The notes beneath the pieces are model-generated. The model was not told the origin of the DNA and ran no database searches. It worked only from the letters and a program-made list of their open reading frames with translations. A stretch of 55,177 nt of DNA from Pseudolabrys sp. (GTDB lineage: Bacteria > Pseudomonadota > Alphaproteobacteria > Rhizobiales > Xanthobacteraceae). Both the position numbers and the translations under genes were made by a program. The stretch is from NCBI GenBank assembly GCA_019247925.1, contig JAFBAG010000342.1:1-55177 (forward strand), in the 5' to 3' direction. Each line of letters starts with the position of its first letter. Position 1 is the first letter of the stretch. Shown here piece after piece: positions 1 to 3,852 of the stretch.

Positions 1-305
1 AACGCGACGGCAACGACCAAGCCGACATGCTCGAATTGCGGGAATACCAAACCCGTCGCCGCCATCAATCCCGCGCTCGCCATGAGGAGAGCGCGCAGAT
101 CGTGCCGGGGCGCGACAAAGCCGATACCGAGCGTCAGCAATGCAGTGCCGAGCAGGGCCGAGGTCGCGACTAATCCTATCTGCGCCGCGTCATAGCCAAG
201 CGCTGCGAGATAAGCCGGCAAGATGATGATGGCGAAGCCGTCGCCGAAGCCGCGCAAGCCGCGAGCGGTGAGAAGGAGCAAAATATCTTTGTAGCGGCGC
301 GTCAT
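1..305 (-). CDS. MFS transporter (5' part, runs off the window start)
   Basis: Manual translation of the minus strand from ATG at 305 gives MTRRYKDILLLLTARGLRGFGDGFAIIILPAYLAALGYDAAQIGLVATSALLGTALLTLGIG, a hydrophobic MFS-type N-terminus. ATGA overlap with the DUF1127 stop. Confidence 0.8.
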   Translation of the reverse strand, partial: MTRRYKDILLLLTARGLRGFGDGFAIIILPAYLAALGYDAAQIGLVATSALLGTALLTLGIGFVAPRHDLRALLMASAGLMAATGLVFPQFEHVGLVVAVA

Positions 306-538
306 TTCCAGAATGGCTTTCTTGCAGCAGCAACCGCTTGATCGCGCGTCAGGCCGATATCGTCCAGAAGGCGGTCGTCAAGATCGAGCAATTGCTGGCG
401 CTGGCGGTGGCGCTCGAACAGGAAGGCAGTGTCGCGCAGCGCCGCGCGAATGTCGGGAACGGTCAGAAAGCTCCGCCAGCGCTGCGGAACTACGAATTCG
501 TTTTGCTTTGGTGTGCAGGTTTTGCTGCCGCAAGACAT
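302..538 (-). CDS. DUF1127 (YjiS-like) small protein
   Basis: Family signature RQRQQLLDLDDRLLDDIGLTR...KPFWK; GGAG RBS upstream. Confidence 0.9.
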   Translation of the reverse strand: MSCGSKTCTPKQNEFVVPQRWRSFLTVPDIRAALRDTAFLFERHRQRQQLLDLDDRLLDDIGLTRDQAVAAARKPFWK

Positions 539-671
539 GCCTCATCTCCGCTTCAGGAGAGAGACAACGCTTGGCTGCAAGCAGCTAATGGGCGGTTGCC
601 GTTAGCCCAGCCCCTTTTTAGCGCAACCGTCCTTTCGGGACAAGCCAAGAAGAAGGCGGGATAAGCCGCGC

Positions 672-703
672 TTGACAGAACCGGATCTAGGATTATTTTC
701 TTA
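672..703 (+). promoter_or_regulatory. Sigma70-type promoter overlapped by a near-palindrome
   Basis: Exact TTGACA at 672-677 and AT-rich TATTTT at 694-699 (16-nt spacer). TAGGA-N6-TCTTA inverted repeat at 688-703. Confidence 0.55.
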
Positions 704-710
704 CACACTT

Positions 711-975
711 CGCCGTCGGCGCGTCATGAAACGCCGGGCGGATGGAGCGCCAGGAGGGCGCTGCACCCCGATCGCAAGGGGTGCGCGCGCCTCGCAAGCG
801 CGCGGTGGCCGATCGCAAGGCCACCGAGAGGCCTCGCAAGCCTCTCGCGCCCTCCCGGCGCTCCATTCCCCTTCGGGGAAACGGAAAAAGGGATACCGGC
901 GTGCCCGCGCCGTTCAAGAACAGGGCCGCTTTCGTATGAGCGAAAATAGCAGGGTGGGTTGCCTGCTCCACCCCG
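711..975 (+). ncRNA. Candidate structured ncRNA or leader with a five-way junction (unassigned family)
   Basis: Outer stem 742-761/847-866 encloses four contiguous perfect hairpins (763-784, 785-803, 804-825, 826-846) whose loops all end in TCGCAA. Further hairpins at 711-740, 866-880, 897-912, 930-945 and 952-973. Confidence 0.65.
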
Positions 976-1035
976 CCATCGCATAGTCGCGCCGCCTTCA
1001 CGGCCCAATAAAAATTCAGCCCGCGGGAGTACGAA

Positions 1036-1887
1036 ATGAAGCTTGTGCGTTATGGAGCGCCCGGCAAGGAAAAGCCCGGCATCATCGACAAGGATGGCAA
1101 GATCCGTGACTTGTCGAAGATCGTCGCCGACATCGACGCCGAGGCGCTGTCGCCCGCCGGCCTCGCGAAGATCAAGAAGGCGGATATCCGCAAGCTTAAA
1201 GTCGTCCCCGGCAAACCGCGGCTCGGCCCCTGCGTCTCGCGCAAGGCGGTCGGCAACTTCATCGCGATCGGCCTGAATTACGCGGACCACGCCGCCGAGG
1301 CCGGCATGCCGCTGCCCAAGGAGCCGATCATCTTCAACAAGGCGCCGTCCTGCATCTGCGGCCCGAACGACAACACCATCATCCCGAAGGGCTCGAGCCA
1401 GCTCGACTACGAGGTCGAGCTCGGCATTGTGATCGGCTCGCCGGCGCTCAATCTCGACAAGAAGAACGCGATGAAGGTCGTCGCCGGTTATTGCATCGGC
1501 AATGACGTGTCCGAGCGCGATTTCCAGATCAACCGACACGGCACATGGATCAAGGGTAAAGGCTGCCCAAGTTTCGGCCCGCTTGGCCCCTGGATGGTGA
1601 CCAAGGACGAGATCAAGAACCCGCAGAACCTCGACATGTGGCTCGACGTCAACGGTCAGAAGCGCCAGCGCGGTAACACCAAGACGATGGTATTCGATGT
1701 CGAGCACATCGTCTGGTACTGCTCGCAGTTCTTCAAGATGGAGCCGGGCGACGTCATCGTCACCGGCACGCCGCCTGGCGTCGCGCTCGGCATGAAGCCG
1801 AAGCCGGTCTGGCTCAAGGCGGGCGACGTCGTGACGTTGGGCATCGAAGGGCTGGGCGAGCAGCGCCAGAAGGTTGTCGCGCGCTAG
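1036..1887 (+). CDS. Fumarylacetoacetate hydrolase (FAH) family protein
   Basis: IGLNYADH, DYEVELG, NDVSERD, GKGCPSFGPLGP and TGTPPGV motifs; GGGAG RBS. Confidence 0.93.
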   Translation: MKLVRYGAPGKEKPGIIDKDGKIRDLSKIVADIDAEALSPAGLAKIKKADIRKLKVVPGKPRLGPCVSRKAVGNFIAIGLNYADHAAEAGMPLPKEPIIFNKAPSCICGPNDNTIIPKGSSQLDYEVELGIVIGSPALNLDKKNAMKVVAGYCIGNDVSERDFQINRHGTWIKGKGCPSFGPLGPWMVTKDEIKNPQNLDMWLDVNGQKRQRGNTKTMVFDVEHIVWYCSQFFKMEPGDVIVTGTPPGVALGMKPKPVWLKAGDVVTLGIEGLGEQRQKVVAR

Positions 1888-1894
1888 GGCTACC

Positions 1895-1930
1895 AAAAGA
1901 AAAACCCCGGGCCTGCGCCCGGGGTTTCTG
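1895..1930. terminator. Intrinsic terminator between convergent genes (U-tract best on the minus strand)
   Basis: Stem aaaccccgggc(1902-1912)/gcccggggttt(1917-1927), flanked by an A-tract on the left and ttt on the right. Confidence 0.85.
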
Positions 1931-1951
1931 GTTCAATCCCTTAAACCGGTC

Positions 1952-2611
1952 TTAGAAGCGGTAGTTCACGCCAGCGCGAACGACGTGGCTGTTGAAGCTG
2001 ACATTGTTCGGCGGCGGGCCGCAGGTGCCGCAGGTGAAGCTGCCGAGATCGACGTAGAGGTATTCGGCCTTCACACTCCAGGCCGAGAAGATTGCGTATT
2101 CAACACCCGCGCCGATCGTCCAGCCGAAACGGGTGGAGCTGGTCGTGCCGCCCGGAGCGATTGCTTCGAGGCCGCCAAAGGCCGCGCCGGCAGTCAGGTA
2201 GGGCAAGAAGCTGCCCCAGCCGCCGTAGCCGATACGGGCGCGCGCGGTGCCGAGCCAGCGATCGCGCATTTCGCAGGTGCCGCCGGTGCAGCCCAGGCTG
2301 TCTTTCATGCCGGAGTACGAGAGGTCACCCTCGATGCCCCAAACGATCGAGCCGGTCTGAATGTTGTAGCCAATCGTGCCGCCGGCGAGGAAGCCAGCCG
2401 GCTTCGGCGCGACGCCAGGCGCCGGAGCTTCCCAGTTGGAGCGGCCGAAGCCGTAGCCGATGACGGCGCCAACGTAGAGGCCGCTCCAGCTGAAAGCCGC
2501 GGGCGCGACATAAGACGGCGCTTTATAGCGAGGCAGGTCAGCGGCGTTCGCCGCCAACGGAGCCGCAAGCAGTGCGGCAAAAATTCCGAGTGTGATCTTT
2601 CTCAAGGTCAT
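1952..2611 (-). CDS. Omp25/RopB-family outer membrane beta-barrel protein
   Basis: Signal peptide ending ANA-ADLP, FSWSGLYVG, GWTIGAGVEY, KAEYLYVDLG and C-terminal NYRF. Start moved to ATG 2611. Confidence 0.92.
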   Translation of the reverse strand: MTLRKITLGIFAALLAAPLAANAADLPRYKAPSYVAPAAFSWSGLYVGAVIGYGFGRSNWEAPAPGVAPKPAGFLAGGTIGYNIQTGSIVWGIEGDLSYSGMKDSLGCTGGTCEMRDRWLGTARARIGYGGWGSFLPYLTAGAAFGGLEAIAPGGTTSSTRFGWTIGAGVEYAIFSAWSVKAEYLYVDLGSFTCGTCGPPPNNVSFNSHVVRAGVNYRF

Positions 2612-2727
2612 GTTTCGAACGGTCCTTCCGCCTGGTCTACTAGCGCGGCGGGAGATCGCGAGATCAACCCGGACGCATGGTTTGCTTTGGCGCAACATGC
2701 GCCTTTCCGCACTCTGACCGGGTTTGG

Positions 2728-2746
2728 TTAATTGCAGGTTAACCAT
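2728..2746. promoter_or_regulatory. CtrA binding box
   Basis: TTAA-ttgcagg-TTAACCAT is an exact TTAA-N7-TTAAC match, about 120 bp upstream of the porin start. Confidence 0.8.
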
Positions 2747-2793
2747 GACAGGCCGCGGTATTCGCGTGCCTTTTTGCATCGATGACTCGGCGC

Positions 2794-3852
2794 TCAGCCG
2801 CGCGCGCCGAGCAGTGATTCTATCGAGATTCGCGACCACGCCGCGCTGCGCGCGCGGAACGCCAGATAGGATTCGTGGATCTTGCGTGTCGCGGCGTCCC
2901 GCGCCGCGAGTTCGGCGACAATATCGCGCGCCTGCGTGCGCGCGGCCGCGACGAGATCATTGGGAAATGCGCGCAGCTGCACGCCGTGCTGTCCGGTCAG
3001 GGCCTCCAATGCCAACGCATTGAGCCGCTCCATCTCGGCGAGTGCGTAACTGGCTTCGGCCGCGCAGGCATGCGCGACAATGCCCTTGAGCGCATCATCG
3101 AGTGCGCGCCATGCGCTCAGCGCGACGATGCATTCGCCGGTGCCGTTCGGCTTGTTGAACCCGGGATAATAGTAAAACGGCGCCACGCGATAGAGGCCGA
3201 GCGCGATGTCGGACCCAGGACCGACGAATTCCGCGCCATCAATGACGCCGGTTTGCAGGCTGGTGAGGATCTCACCCGGCGGCGTGGTCTGCGGCGTCGC
3301 GCCGAGCCTGCGGTAAACCTCGCCGCCGAGGCCGAGCGAACGCAACTTGAGGCCGCGCAAATCGGCTAGGCTGCGGACTTCGCGGCGAAACCAGCCGCCC
3401 ATGCAAACGCCGGTATTGCCCCCCATGAATGGCTTCACGCCAAACGGCGCATAGAGATCGTCCCACATCTGCTGGCCGCCGCCGGCATCGATCCACGCGA
3501 CGTGCTCGGCCGGCGTCAGTCCGAACGGCACCGTGGTGAAGAAGGCCGCCGCCGGCGTTTTGCCTTGCCAATAGAACGACGCGGTGTGACCGATTTCGGC
3601 CACGCCATTGCCGACCGCGTCGAGCACTTCGAAGGCGGGGACGAGTTCACCCGCCGCATGCACCGAAATCTCGAGGCGACCGTTCGACAGCGTGCGAATG
3701 CGCTCGGCGATACGTTCTGCCGACATTCCCGGTCCCGGCAGGCGCTTGGGCCAGGACGTCACCATGCGCCATTTCAGTGTTTGCGCGCGCGCGACAGCCG
3801 GCGCAGCGACGCTCAGCCCAAGCACAGCGACAAATTTGCGGCGTGTCGTCAT
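2794..3852 (-). CDS. TRAP transporter substrate-binding protein (TakP-like), Tat signal
   Basis: MTTRRKF twin-arginine signal, WRMVTSWP, YWQGK, MGGWF, GLKLR and DGAEFVGP motifs. ATGA overlap with the thiD stop. Confidence 0.9.
   Translation of the reverse strand: MTTRRKFVAVLGLSVAAPAVARAQTLKWRMVTSWPKRLPGPGMSAERIAERIRTLSNGRLEISVHAAGELVPAFEVLDAVGNGVAEIGHTASFYWQGKTPAAAFFTTVPFGLTPAEHVAWIDAGGGQQMWDDLYAPFGVKPFMGGNTGVCMGGWFRREVRSLADLRGLKLRSLGLGGEVYRRLGATPQTTPPGEILTSLQTGVIDGAEFVGPGSDIALGLYRVAPFYYYPGFNKPNGTGECIVALSAWRALDDALKGIVAHACAAEASYALAEMERLNALALEALTGQHGVQLRAFPNDLVAAARTQARDIVAELAARDAATRKIHESYLAFRARSAAWSRISIESLLGARG

What the first reader, a model, noticed from the sequence alone, without database searches (positions are those of the whole stretch)
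742..866. Near-perfect five-way junction: four different stems carrying alternating GATCGCAA/CTCGCAA loops (candidate new structured ncRNA)
Seen: a 19-bp outer helix (atggagcgcc-a-ggagggcgc / gcgccctcc-c-ggcgctccat) encloses four abutting perfect hairpins. They are gcacccc-GATCGCAA-ggggtgc (763-784), gcgcgc-CTCGCAA-gcgcgc (785-803), ggtggcc-GATCGCAA-ggccacc (804-825) and gagaggc-CTCGCAA-gcctctc (826-846). Only T762 is unpaired in the junction. Stem sequences are unrelated while loops are conserved in an ABAB order, which is internal covariation and implies selection on structure plus loop. Known: repeated-loop RNAs act as protein sponges (CsrB/RsmZ, GGA loops) or anti-SD regulators (cuckoo/CcsR, CCUCCUCCC loops); these loops match neither. 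Inference: a multivalent protein-binding RNA, a self-assembling RNA (GAUC in loops 1 and 3 is self-complementary, so kissing is possible), or an ssDNA hairpin element recognised by an HUH-type enzyme. I cannot assign it to a known family.
Basis: partly seen in the sequence, partly recalled or inferred. Interest (0 to 1): 0.9.

Follow-up and report, generated by a model that had tools for sequence, protein, structure and literature searches.

The report
Multicopy structured RNA, GTA-type promoter
The four look-alike hairpins are the swappable middle of a protein-free, folded repeat carried in up to 39 copies per genome in one bacterial family; it is predicted to be an RNA that pairs with a second copy of itself, likely made under the same repressor that keeps gene transfer agents (domesticated phages) switched off.

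Summary
The hairpin cluster is exactly as described (z -10.3; no Rfam match). It is one of five copies in this genome of a dispersed element found in 57 of 140 genomes of the host family, at up to 39 copies. This scan noted the family once before on other DNA (e1-4052500).

The unit is larger than the finding: promoter (672-699), a 5' hairpin whose loop is a 6-base palindrome of varying sequence (56 of 58 copies), the four-arm junction, a purine linker and a covarying 3' pseudoknot (897-926). About a third of related copies end in an rRNA-type boxA; this one does not. Interiors are interchangeable, and the ABAB order is incidental (3 of 79).

New here: the promoters share a palindromic operator with the promoters of gafYZ, the gene-transfer-agent activators (15 of 19), resembling the RogA site of Caulobacter.

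Best reading: a RogA-repressed RNA that dimerises through its palindromic loop and offers repeated loops to a protein, spreading by DNA duplication and gene conversion. Transcription, dimer and partner are untested. No transposase or reverse transcriptase tracks it. Closest analogue: extended TwoAYGGAY repeats of Pseudomonas.

The parts
655..665 (-). TTATCCCGCC motif, here reversed; same motif opens many element promoters and gafY promoters
   Evidence: position; promoter class in 43 of 171 copies; YTATCCYC in 12 of 19 gafY upstream regions, 0 of 57 controls; binding factor not shown
672..699 (+). sigma-70-type promoter TTGACA-16-TATTTT; start site predicted near 706
   Evidence: 1 found, 0.2 expected; promoter pattern upstream of 101 of 171 copies, 4 antisense, 3.9 shuffled
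688..703 (.). palindromic operator over the -10 box (family consensus TAGGAH-TATA-DTCCTA), RogA-like
   Evidence: 80 of 171 copies vs 2.0 shuffled; 15 of 19 gafY upstream regions vs 0 of 57; GGAA-N4-TTCC in PMC9632790
711..740 (+). P1 hairpin
   Evidence: local fold -13.9 kcal/mol; alignment A1
724..729 (+). palindromic loop hexamer TCATGA, predicted self-kissing site
   Evidence: 56 of 58 homologues vs 22+-3 in column shuffles; 31 of 33 vs 2 of 33 in an independent set
742..866 (+). P4 outer helix enclosing the four-arm junction (the finding)
   Evidence: four arms in 79 of 85 and 76 of 92
763..784 (+). arm 1, loop GATCGCAA
   Evidence: covarying
785..803 (+). arm 2, loop CTCGCAA
804..825 (+). 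arm 3, loop GATCGCAA
   Evidence: folds copy by copy, not recovered in the consensus fold because of indels
826..846 (+). arm 4, loop CTCGCAA
866..880 (+). P5 hairpin with cUUCGg loop
   Evidence: loop variable in the family
882..893 (+). purine-rich linker CGGAAAAAGGGA
   Evidence: part of my search pattern, so its invariance is partly ascertainment
897..926 (+). 3' H-type pseudoknot: stem 897-902/907-912, loop GCCC 903-906 pairing with GGGC 923-926, A-rich connector 913-922
   Evidence: 4 or more pairs in 77 of 84 vs 51+-3 tail swaps; 82 of 106
957..987 (+). separate promoter-like site of the downstream FAA-hydrolase gene (not part of the element)
   Evidence: similar sequence upstream of orthologues that lack the element
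302..538 (-). neighbour: DUF1127 protein, incidental
   Evidence: Pfam PF06568; found beside only this one of 372 element loci
1036..1887 (+). neighbour: FAA hydrolase, incidental
   Evidence: Pfam PF01557; 0 of 27 informative congener orthologues have the element upstream

Best explanation
The hairpins are the variable middle domain of a protein-free, multicopy repeat with its own promoter, predicted to make an RNA of about 225 bases that likely dimerises through a palindromic loop and likely presents its repeated C/A-rich loops to a protein, and that is likely transcribed when the repressor RogA lets go. Steps: (1) shown: fixed frame of promoter, P1 with palindromic loop, long helix P4, P5, purine linker and 3' pseudoknot, with interchangeable interiors; (2) shown: promoter motifs shared with gafYZ promoters; inferred: RogA repression, hence expression in the same cell state that makes gene transfer agents, with LexA boxes used instead in some copies; (3) inferred: P1-P1 kissing gives a dimer with eight arms; the pseudoknot protects or anchors the 3' end; boxA, where kept, loads the Nus complex; (4) shown: within-genome homogenisation, shared and empty sites beside REP repeats; inferred: spread by DNA duplication and gene conversion without a dedicated transposase. 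The window copy is a compact, boxA-less, lineage-specific insertion.
For: Copies: 5 in this genome, 20 of 36 congeners, 57 of 140 family genomes, 14-39 in five rescored genomes. RNA-level signs on the + strand: promoter 101 of 171 vs 4 antisense; pseudoknot covariation; conserved U-G pair, UG 36 / CG 17; + strand folds lower in 77 of 85; boxA-like motif after 86 of 250 copies, 2 on the other strand, 0 of 619 distal windows, the same motif lying about 230-270 bases before 16S rRNA in 3 of 3 leaders fetched. Palindrome 56 of 58 with eight different hexamers. Constraint within a genome: polymorphic sites 20% paired vs 34% unpaired vs 67% promoter in 22 copies of G216. Operator sharing, same deviant motif in gafY and element promoters of G103. 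Same-genome pairs 0.82 identity, same-locus 0.745, unrelated 0.68. Not a leader: neighbours in all four orientations, 398 genes in 251 clusters.
Against: No transcript, dimer or binding partner has been observed. Promoter and operator patterns were read off the same data that they are counted in. Related sequences inflate all shuffle tests. A fixed-register count of the palindrome was weak (75% vs 69% paired, covariation reached by 38 of 500 shuffles) because the hexamer sits in two registers. Arm loops fall into several classes (CGCAA 142, CGCCA/CACCA 101, other 73), awkward for one sequence-specific protein; some copies lack the arms or P1 altogether. Gene conversion alone could keep copies alike without benefit to the host. 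RogA binding in this family is inferred from sequence.
Confidence: 0.45

Rival explanations
1. Selfish hitchhiker of the gene transfer agent: the RNA is made in GTA-producing cells and biases packaging towards its own locus (or engages the terminase or capsid), so the element homes into empty alleles and converts paralogues by recombination.
For: gafYZ-like promoters; GTA tail gene in 19 of 22 genomes with 10 or more copies vs 61 of 118 others; operator in 16 of 24 and 5 of 5 copies in GTA-positive G216 and G183 but 2 of 26 and 0 of 6 in GTA-negative G203 and G151, which also gave no gafZ hit; no transposase needed; conserved insertion sites beside core genes.
Against: G203 has 39 copies and no GTA gene found; any-match association is weak, 38 of 57 vs 42 of 83, p 0.08; genomes are related; G221, G215, G204 have the operator in only 1 of 3, 2 of 5, 1 of 2 copies tested; no likeness to GTA leaders; RogA-like genes persist in GTA-less genomes.
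Confidence: 0.15
2. Portable cis-acting promoter and antitermination cassette that drives downstream transcription.
For: Own promoter; rRNA-type boxA at the 3' end; P2 loop C-GACAA-Y in 76 of 252 loci resembles P22 boxB.
Against: Downstream gene is convergent more often than not (131 vs 98); boxA in only 20 of 149 four-arm copies and not in the window; the window's downstream gene has its own promoter-like site; the window copy lacks P2.
Confidence: 0.12
3. Trans-acting base-pairing regulator or RNA sponge of the cuckoo kind, loops pairing with targets.
For: Repeated exposed loops, homogeneous within a copy (262 same-class pairs vs 140+-8); DUF1127 gene next door as in CcsR loci (recalled).
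Against: Loops are not anti-Shine-Dalgarno; rigid junction, pseudoknot and 0-39 copy number are unlike cuckoo RNAs; DUF1127 beside 1 of 372 loci. No target search was run.
Confidence: 0.1
4. Non-autonomous DNA transposon or REP-like element whose hairpins are read as ssDNA by an HUH or IS110-type enzyme.
For: Dispersed, patchy, beside REP mosaics (REP-like motif downstream of 113 of 228 vs 47 of 146); one empty site next to a REP dimer; a GIY-YIG gene beside one copy.
Against: Y1 4 of 22 vs 6 of 20, IS110 5 of 22 vs 12 of 20; GIY-YIG in all 42; no terminal inverted repeat or target duplication seen by eye; promoter, boxA, pseudoknot and U-G pair are RNA-level signals.
Confidence: 0.1
5. SINE-like retro-element copied by a reverse transcriptase, with a retrovirus-like dimer signal.
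For: Highest identity starts at the predicted start site: private substitutions per site 0.56 in promoter vs 0.11-0.16 in the transcribed part; the same RNA follows unrelated promoters in G203.
Against: Reverse transcriptase in 7 of 22 vs 6 of 20 genomes, none in complete G216 with 31 copies; promoters and upstream REPs are copied with the unit; conversion edge effects explain the gradient.
Confidence: 0.07

Closest known systems
Extended TwoAYGGAY RNA repeats of Pseudomonas (Rfam RF01731; bioRxiv 10.64898/2026.09.22.753630, section 8 read)
   Same: Multicopy intergenic structured RNA, repeated-loop hairpins on a long basal stem, extra hairpins, 3' pseudoknot, REP arrays downstream, copy number varying from tens to hundreds, function unknown.
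   Different: Two AYGGAY loops there, four C/A-rich loops here; no RF01731 match in 5 genomes tested (no positive control rang); the section read mentions no palindromic loop, RogA-type operator or boxA.
CsrB/RsmZ sponges and cuckoo (alpha-r14/CcsR) RNAs (recalled; Rfam models scanned)
   Same: Several hairpins with one repeated loop motif, own promoter, paralogues.
   Different: No GGA or CCUCCUCCC loops; arms closed into a junction; pseudoknot; repeat-like dynamics.
RogA-gafYZ control of Caulobacter GTA (PMC9632790, PMC11150451; passages read)
   Same: GGAA-N4-TTCC-like inverted repeat over the core promoter; gafY/gafZ and RogA-like genes present in this genome.
   Different: Here the operator fronts dispersed non-coding elements; RogA ChIP in Caulobacter found two targets only.
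rRNA boxA / Nus antitermination signal (PMC5725501, PMC13753749; passages read)
   Same: Motif equals the sequence in the family's own 16S leaders and resembles GYTCTTTAANA and AUGAUCUUUGAAA.
   Different: Lies after, not before, the structured RNA; missing in the window copy.
Self-dimerising natural RNAs: HYER1/5, ARRPOF, OLE, ROOL, GOLLD (PMC12990946, passages read); HIV-1 DIS (recalled)
   Same: Palindromic or kissing-loop homodimer contacts.
   Different: No sequence or Rfam similarity; dimer here only predicted.
Br-REP1/2, CGTC/GTAG REPs and BjsR sRNAs of Bradyrhizobium (PMC5082802, PMC3733652; passages read)
   Same: Same host family; REPs flank many copies; BjsR5/6/7/10 are multicopy sRNAs.
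   Different: REPs are 20-40 bases without promoter; by eye none of the BjsR probes matches the window element; their alignments are images that I could not read.

Membership tests
Any Rfam 15 family | cmscan match at gathering score | tested here: not met
   window 1-3000, 20 homologous loci, 14 long-type loci: nothing near threshold on the element
TwoAYGGAY (RF01731) | two hairpins with AYGGAY loops | tested here: not met
   loop inventory
TwoAYGGAY (extended) | long basal stem, 3' pseudoknot, multicopy, REP-linked | tested here: met
CsrB/RsmZ | repeated GGA loops | tested here: not met
CsrB/RsmZ | binds many copies of a protein | not testable with these tools
   needs pull-down
Cuckoo/CcsR | CCUCCUCCC loops | tested here: not met
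   CCCTCCC occurs only inside the paired P4 helix
MITE / non-autonomous IS | terminal inverted repeats and target duplication | tested here: inconclusive
   none seen by eye in G216 copies and one empty site; ends blurred by REP mosaics
MITE / non-autonomous IS | cognate transposase in the genome or beside a copy | tested here: not met
   Y1 (77), IS110 (82), neighbour clustering (72, 101); other IS families not searched
REP/BIME | 20-40 base GTAG- or CGTC-tagged palindrome | tested here: not met
   unit of 230-550 bases with promoter
Retro-element / retron ncRNA | linked reverse transcriptase | tested here: not met
RogA regulon | GGAA-N4-TTCC-like inverted repeat over the promoter | tested here: met
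   window site matches the family consensus at 13 of 16
RogA regulon | RogA binding and derepression in a rogA mutant | not testable with these tools
   needs ChIP, EMSA or RNA-seq
Expressed non-coding RNA | detectable transcript | not testable with these tools
   no RNA run was listed
Protein-coding gene | conserved reading frame | tested here: not met
   core lengths spread over all three frames, 27/35/23; overlapping ORFs without Pfam match

The most novel reading that the evidence does not exclude
A protein-free selfish RNA element that copies the master promoter of the gene transfer agent, is made in GTA-producing cells, self-assembles through palindromic loops and biases or exploits GTA packaging to spread its own locus: an RNA-only GTA parasite, with LexA-controlled versions where the GTA was lost.
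Probability: 0.15. Interest if true: 0.95.

Novelty: new variant of a known kind. Interest (0 to 1): 0.76.

Why it matters
It defines an uncatalogued family of large, modular structured RNA repeats across Xanthobacteraceae (records labelled Pseudolabrys, Rhodoplanes, Pseudorhodoplanes, Variibacter), with three directly testable handles: a covarying palindromic loop (natural RNA dimer, a cryo-EM target), a RogA-type operator that ties non-coding repeats to the gene-transfer-agent switch, and an rRNA boxA. It bears on two open questions: how transposase-free bacterial repeats such as TwoAYGGAY spread, and whether GTAs are exploited by selfish elements.

Tried and rejected
Rfam scans: no family. 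Expression: no RNA holder listed; no evidence either way. Phages and plasmids: no blastn match for the window element; patterns gave 0, 0 and 1 hit in viral contigs, the one hit a chance match in a coding region; long types gave one 67-base plasmid match and none, not followed up. 5' leader of the FAA hydrolase: rejected. Link to DUF1127: rejected. Dedicated partner gene: none in neighbour clustering. Mobilisers: Y1, RT, IS110 not enriched, GIY-YIG universal. Origin of the 3' domain from the rRNA leader hairpins: no profile hit in 6 leaders with boxA excluded. Origin from the GTA leader: no profile hit above noise in 8 stretches; TTATCCCC motif absent before the terminase in the 6 where it was located, 3 with short upstream DNA, so I do not call it a GafY site. 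Operator pattern at 2 mismatches in 5 genomes was not above its control. Anticodon-loop, ANTAR, sigma-54 and CCA-end mimic readings of the loops (recalled motifs) were considered and dropped because loop variants break them. Hit L204 outside the family looks like a chance coding match; L205 looks real. Literature searches without a description of this family; the library lacks most subscription papers, and the BjsR alignments in PMC5082802 supplements were images (12 files searched; files 10 and 19 read).

Full report
Observation. The cluster folds as a five-way junction with z -10.3 and has no Rfam match. It lies between a DUF1127 gene and an FAA-hydrolase gene.

It is a repeat family. The genome holds five copies plus a truncated promoter-and-P1 piece. 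Blastn found it in 20 of 36 congeners and in none of 24 genomes of other families. In an order-wide draw 2 of 140 matched weakly, one credibly. Named records carrying it are labelled Pseudolabrys, Rhodoplanes, Pseudorhodoplanes, Variibacter, Xanthobacteraceae or unclassified Alphaproteobacteria. At the window's own site the element is a lineage-specific insertion: of 29 congener orthologues of the FAA hydrolase, 27 had enough upstream DNA and none had it.

Anatomy. From 143 sequences I anchored 99 hits, dropped 5 by hand as wrong-strand or duplicate, and merged 9 identical cores, leaving 85. Of these 79 have four terminal hairpins, 5 have five, 1 has two. An independent metagenome set (120 loci, 114 unique, 92 scorable) gave 76 with four and 12 with five. 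Arm stems covary (10 of 36 consensus pairs in 40 of the 47 short cores; arm 3 was not recovered by the consensus). Loops are C/A-rich and fall into classes (CGCAA 142, CGCCA/CACCA 101, other 73), homogeneous within a copy (262 vs 140+-8); ABAB occurs in 3 of 79. The 3' arm of P4 and the purine linker were in my search pattern, so their invariance is partly ascertainment.

The 5' hairpin P1 carries a perfect 6-base palindrome in its loop in 56 of 58 aligned copies, against 22+-3 (max 34) when columns are shuffled; eight different hexamers occur. Two control windows were also palindrome-rich (25 and 28 of 58) but matched their shuffles. The independent set gave 31 of 33 against 2 of 33 in the adjacent window. 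A fixed-register pair count was weak because two registers are used. What is conserved is self-complementarity, the signature of a kissing homodimer; palindromic pairing is a known dimer contact in natural RNAs (PMC12990946, passages). The dimer is an inference.

The 3' end is an H-type pseudoknot: 4 or more loop-tail pairs in 77 of 84 parsed copies against 51+-3 with tails swapped, compensatory changes in 3 of 5 pseudoknot pairs, 82 of 106 in the independent set. Beyond it, 86 of 250 copies carry GCTGTTTGA(C/A)A on the sense strand (2 antisense, 0 of 619 distal windows; 20 of 149 four-arm copies; not the window copy). An extended form has 177 sites in 22 element-rich genomes, none in this one, and 8 sites in 20 element-poor genomes. 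In six of the genomes with a single site it sits in what reads as an rRNA leader; 16S follows about 230-270 bases later in 3 of 3 checked. That position and its likeness to published boxA consensuses (PMC5725501, PMC13753749, passages) make it a boxA; NusB binding is inferred.

The frame is fixed and the middle is swappable. Long subtypes with unrelated interiors share promoter, palindromic P1 and 3' end; deletion derivatives lack the arms or all of the 5' part. Copies within a genome are more alike (0.82, 53 pairs) than copies at the same locus in different genomes (0.745, 130 pairs) or unrelated pairs (0.68, 9687 pairs). Among three species of one genus, 3 of 4 sites tested were filled in all, one was empty in one species beside a REP dimer, and interior variants were shuffled between sites: slow gain and loss plus gene conversion. 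Within G216 (22 copies) and G203 (11 copies of one subtype) paired sites vary less than unpaired ones and both far less than the promoter. Neighbours are ordinary genes in all orientations. Y1/RAYT, reverse transcriptase and IS110 genes are not enriched in element-rich genomes and GIY-YIG genes are everywhere.

Promoters. A sigma-70-type or TTATCCCC-type promoter precedes 101 of 171 copies (4 antisense, 3.9 shuffled) and a palindrome TAGGAH-TATA-DTCCTA 80 of 171 (2.0 shuffled); the patterns were derived from these data. In this genome, of 9 matches at up to 3 mismatches six are element promoters (two of them one locus split over two contigs) and one precedes a Bac_DnaA_C plus DUF6456 gene pair, which I read as the gafY/gafZ activators of gene transfer agents. 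In Caulobacter RogA represses gafYZ by binding GGAA-N4-TTCC repeats (PMC9632790, passages). The operator is present upstream of 15 of 19 gafY homologues against 0 of 57 control windows, the TTATCCCC-like motif upstream of 12 of 19 against 0 of 57. RogA-like genes were found in 5 of 5 genomes tested, this one included. Element promoters therefore look like gafYZ promoters. LexA-type boxes occur upstream of 18 of 171 copies, several of them in G203, which has no GTA tail gene or gafZ hit. Genome-wide, the GTA marker is in 19 of 22 genomes with 10 or more copies against 61 of 118 others, but only 38 of 57 against 42 of 83 for any match; kin are not independent and GTA is not required. This genome has gafYZ and a terminase-like motif but no GTA_TIM hit, at 91% completeness.

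Mechanism. I commit to a RogA-repressed, self-dimerising, multivalent RNA scaffold spread by duplication and conversion (0.45). The family, its frame and its promoter motifs are shown; transcription, dimer, partner and RogA control are inferred. The boldest reading not excluded is a parasite of GTA packaging (0.15).

Comparison. The nearest architecture is the extended TwoAYGGAY repeat of Pseudomonas (bioRxiv 10.64898/2026.09.22.753630, passages and section 8; listed as a motif in PMC2864571, passages). It works like that kind of repeat but is not a member. Ten literature searches gave no description of this family; PMC5082802, PMC3733652 and PMC2267715 (passages) cover other repeats and sRNAs, and image-only supplements of PMC5082802 could hide an overlap with BjsR RNAs. 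The scan itself noted the family earlier on another genome (e1-4052500); the palindromic loop, pseudoknot, boxA, swappable interiors and gafYZ-type promoter are not in the lines of that note that I saw.

Noticed in passing
G000:C193 (about 1236-1340, minus strand): A promoter-plus-P1 fragment of the element without the rest, 1.2 kb from another copy; C193 and C65 overlap at their ends.
   Followed up: partly
L468 (G000:C182:289-1289): gafY/gafZ-like gene pair with the same operator upstream, next to sufE and DUF5330.
   Followed up: yes
L099:1804-2216: One copy lies just upstream of the permuted tmRNA gene.
   Followed up: no
L174, L194: Internal deletion derivatives: promoter motif fused to the 3' domain; P1 fused to the 3' domain.
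   Followed up: partly
L286, L224 (G203): What reads as an insertion sequence has landed in the P1 palindrome of one copy and near another; family not checked.
   Followed up: no
L252 (G151): The interior appears inverted relative to sister copies.
   Followed up: no
L316, L319 (G215): boxA plus REP mosaic without the structured RNA upstream, and a second boxA after a REP dimer.
   Followed up: no
P2 hairpin of homologues, e.g. L003: Loop C-GACAA-Y closely resembles phage P22 boxB GCGCUGACAAAGCGC; absent from the window copy.
   Followed up: partly
L141-L169: The region upstream of the FAA hydrolase is an insertion hot spot, with different small genes and REPs in different congeners.
   Followed up: no
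window 1895-1929: Bidirectional terminator-like hairpin between the FAA hydrolase and the outer-membrane protein gene.
   Followed up: no
L504-L508: RogA-like genes carry a half-site ATAATTCCTA-like sequence upstream, hinting at autoregulation.
   Followed up: partly
G205, G151: Many reverse-transcriptase and IS110 genes (23 RT hits in G205, 43 IS110 hits in G151).
   Followed up: no
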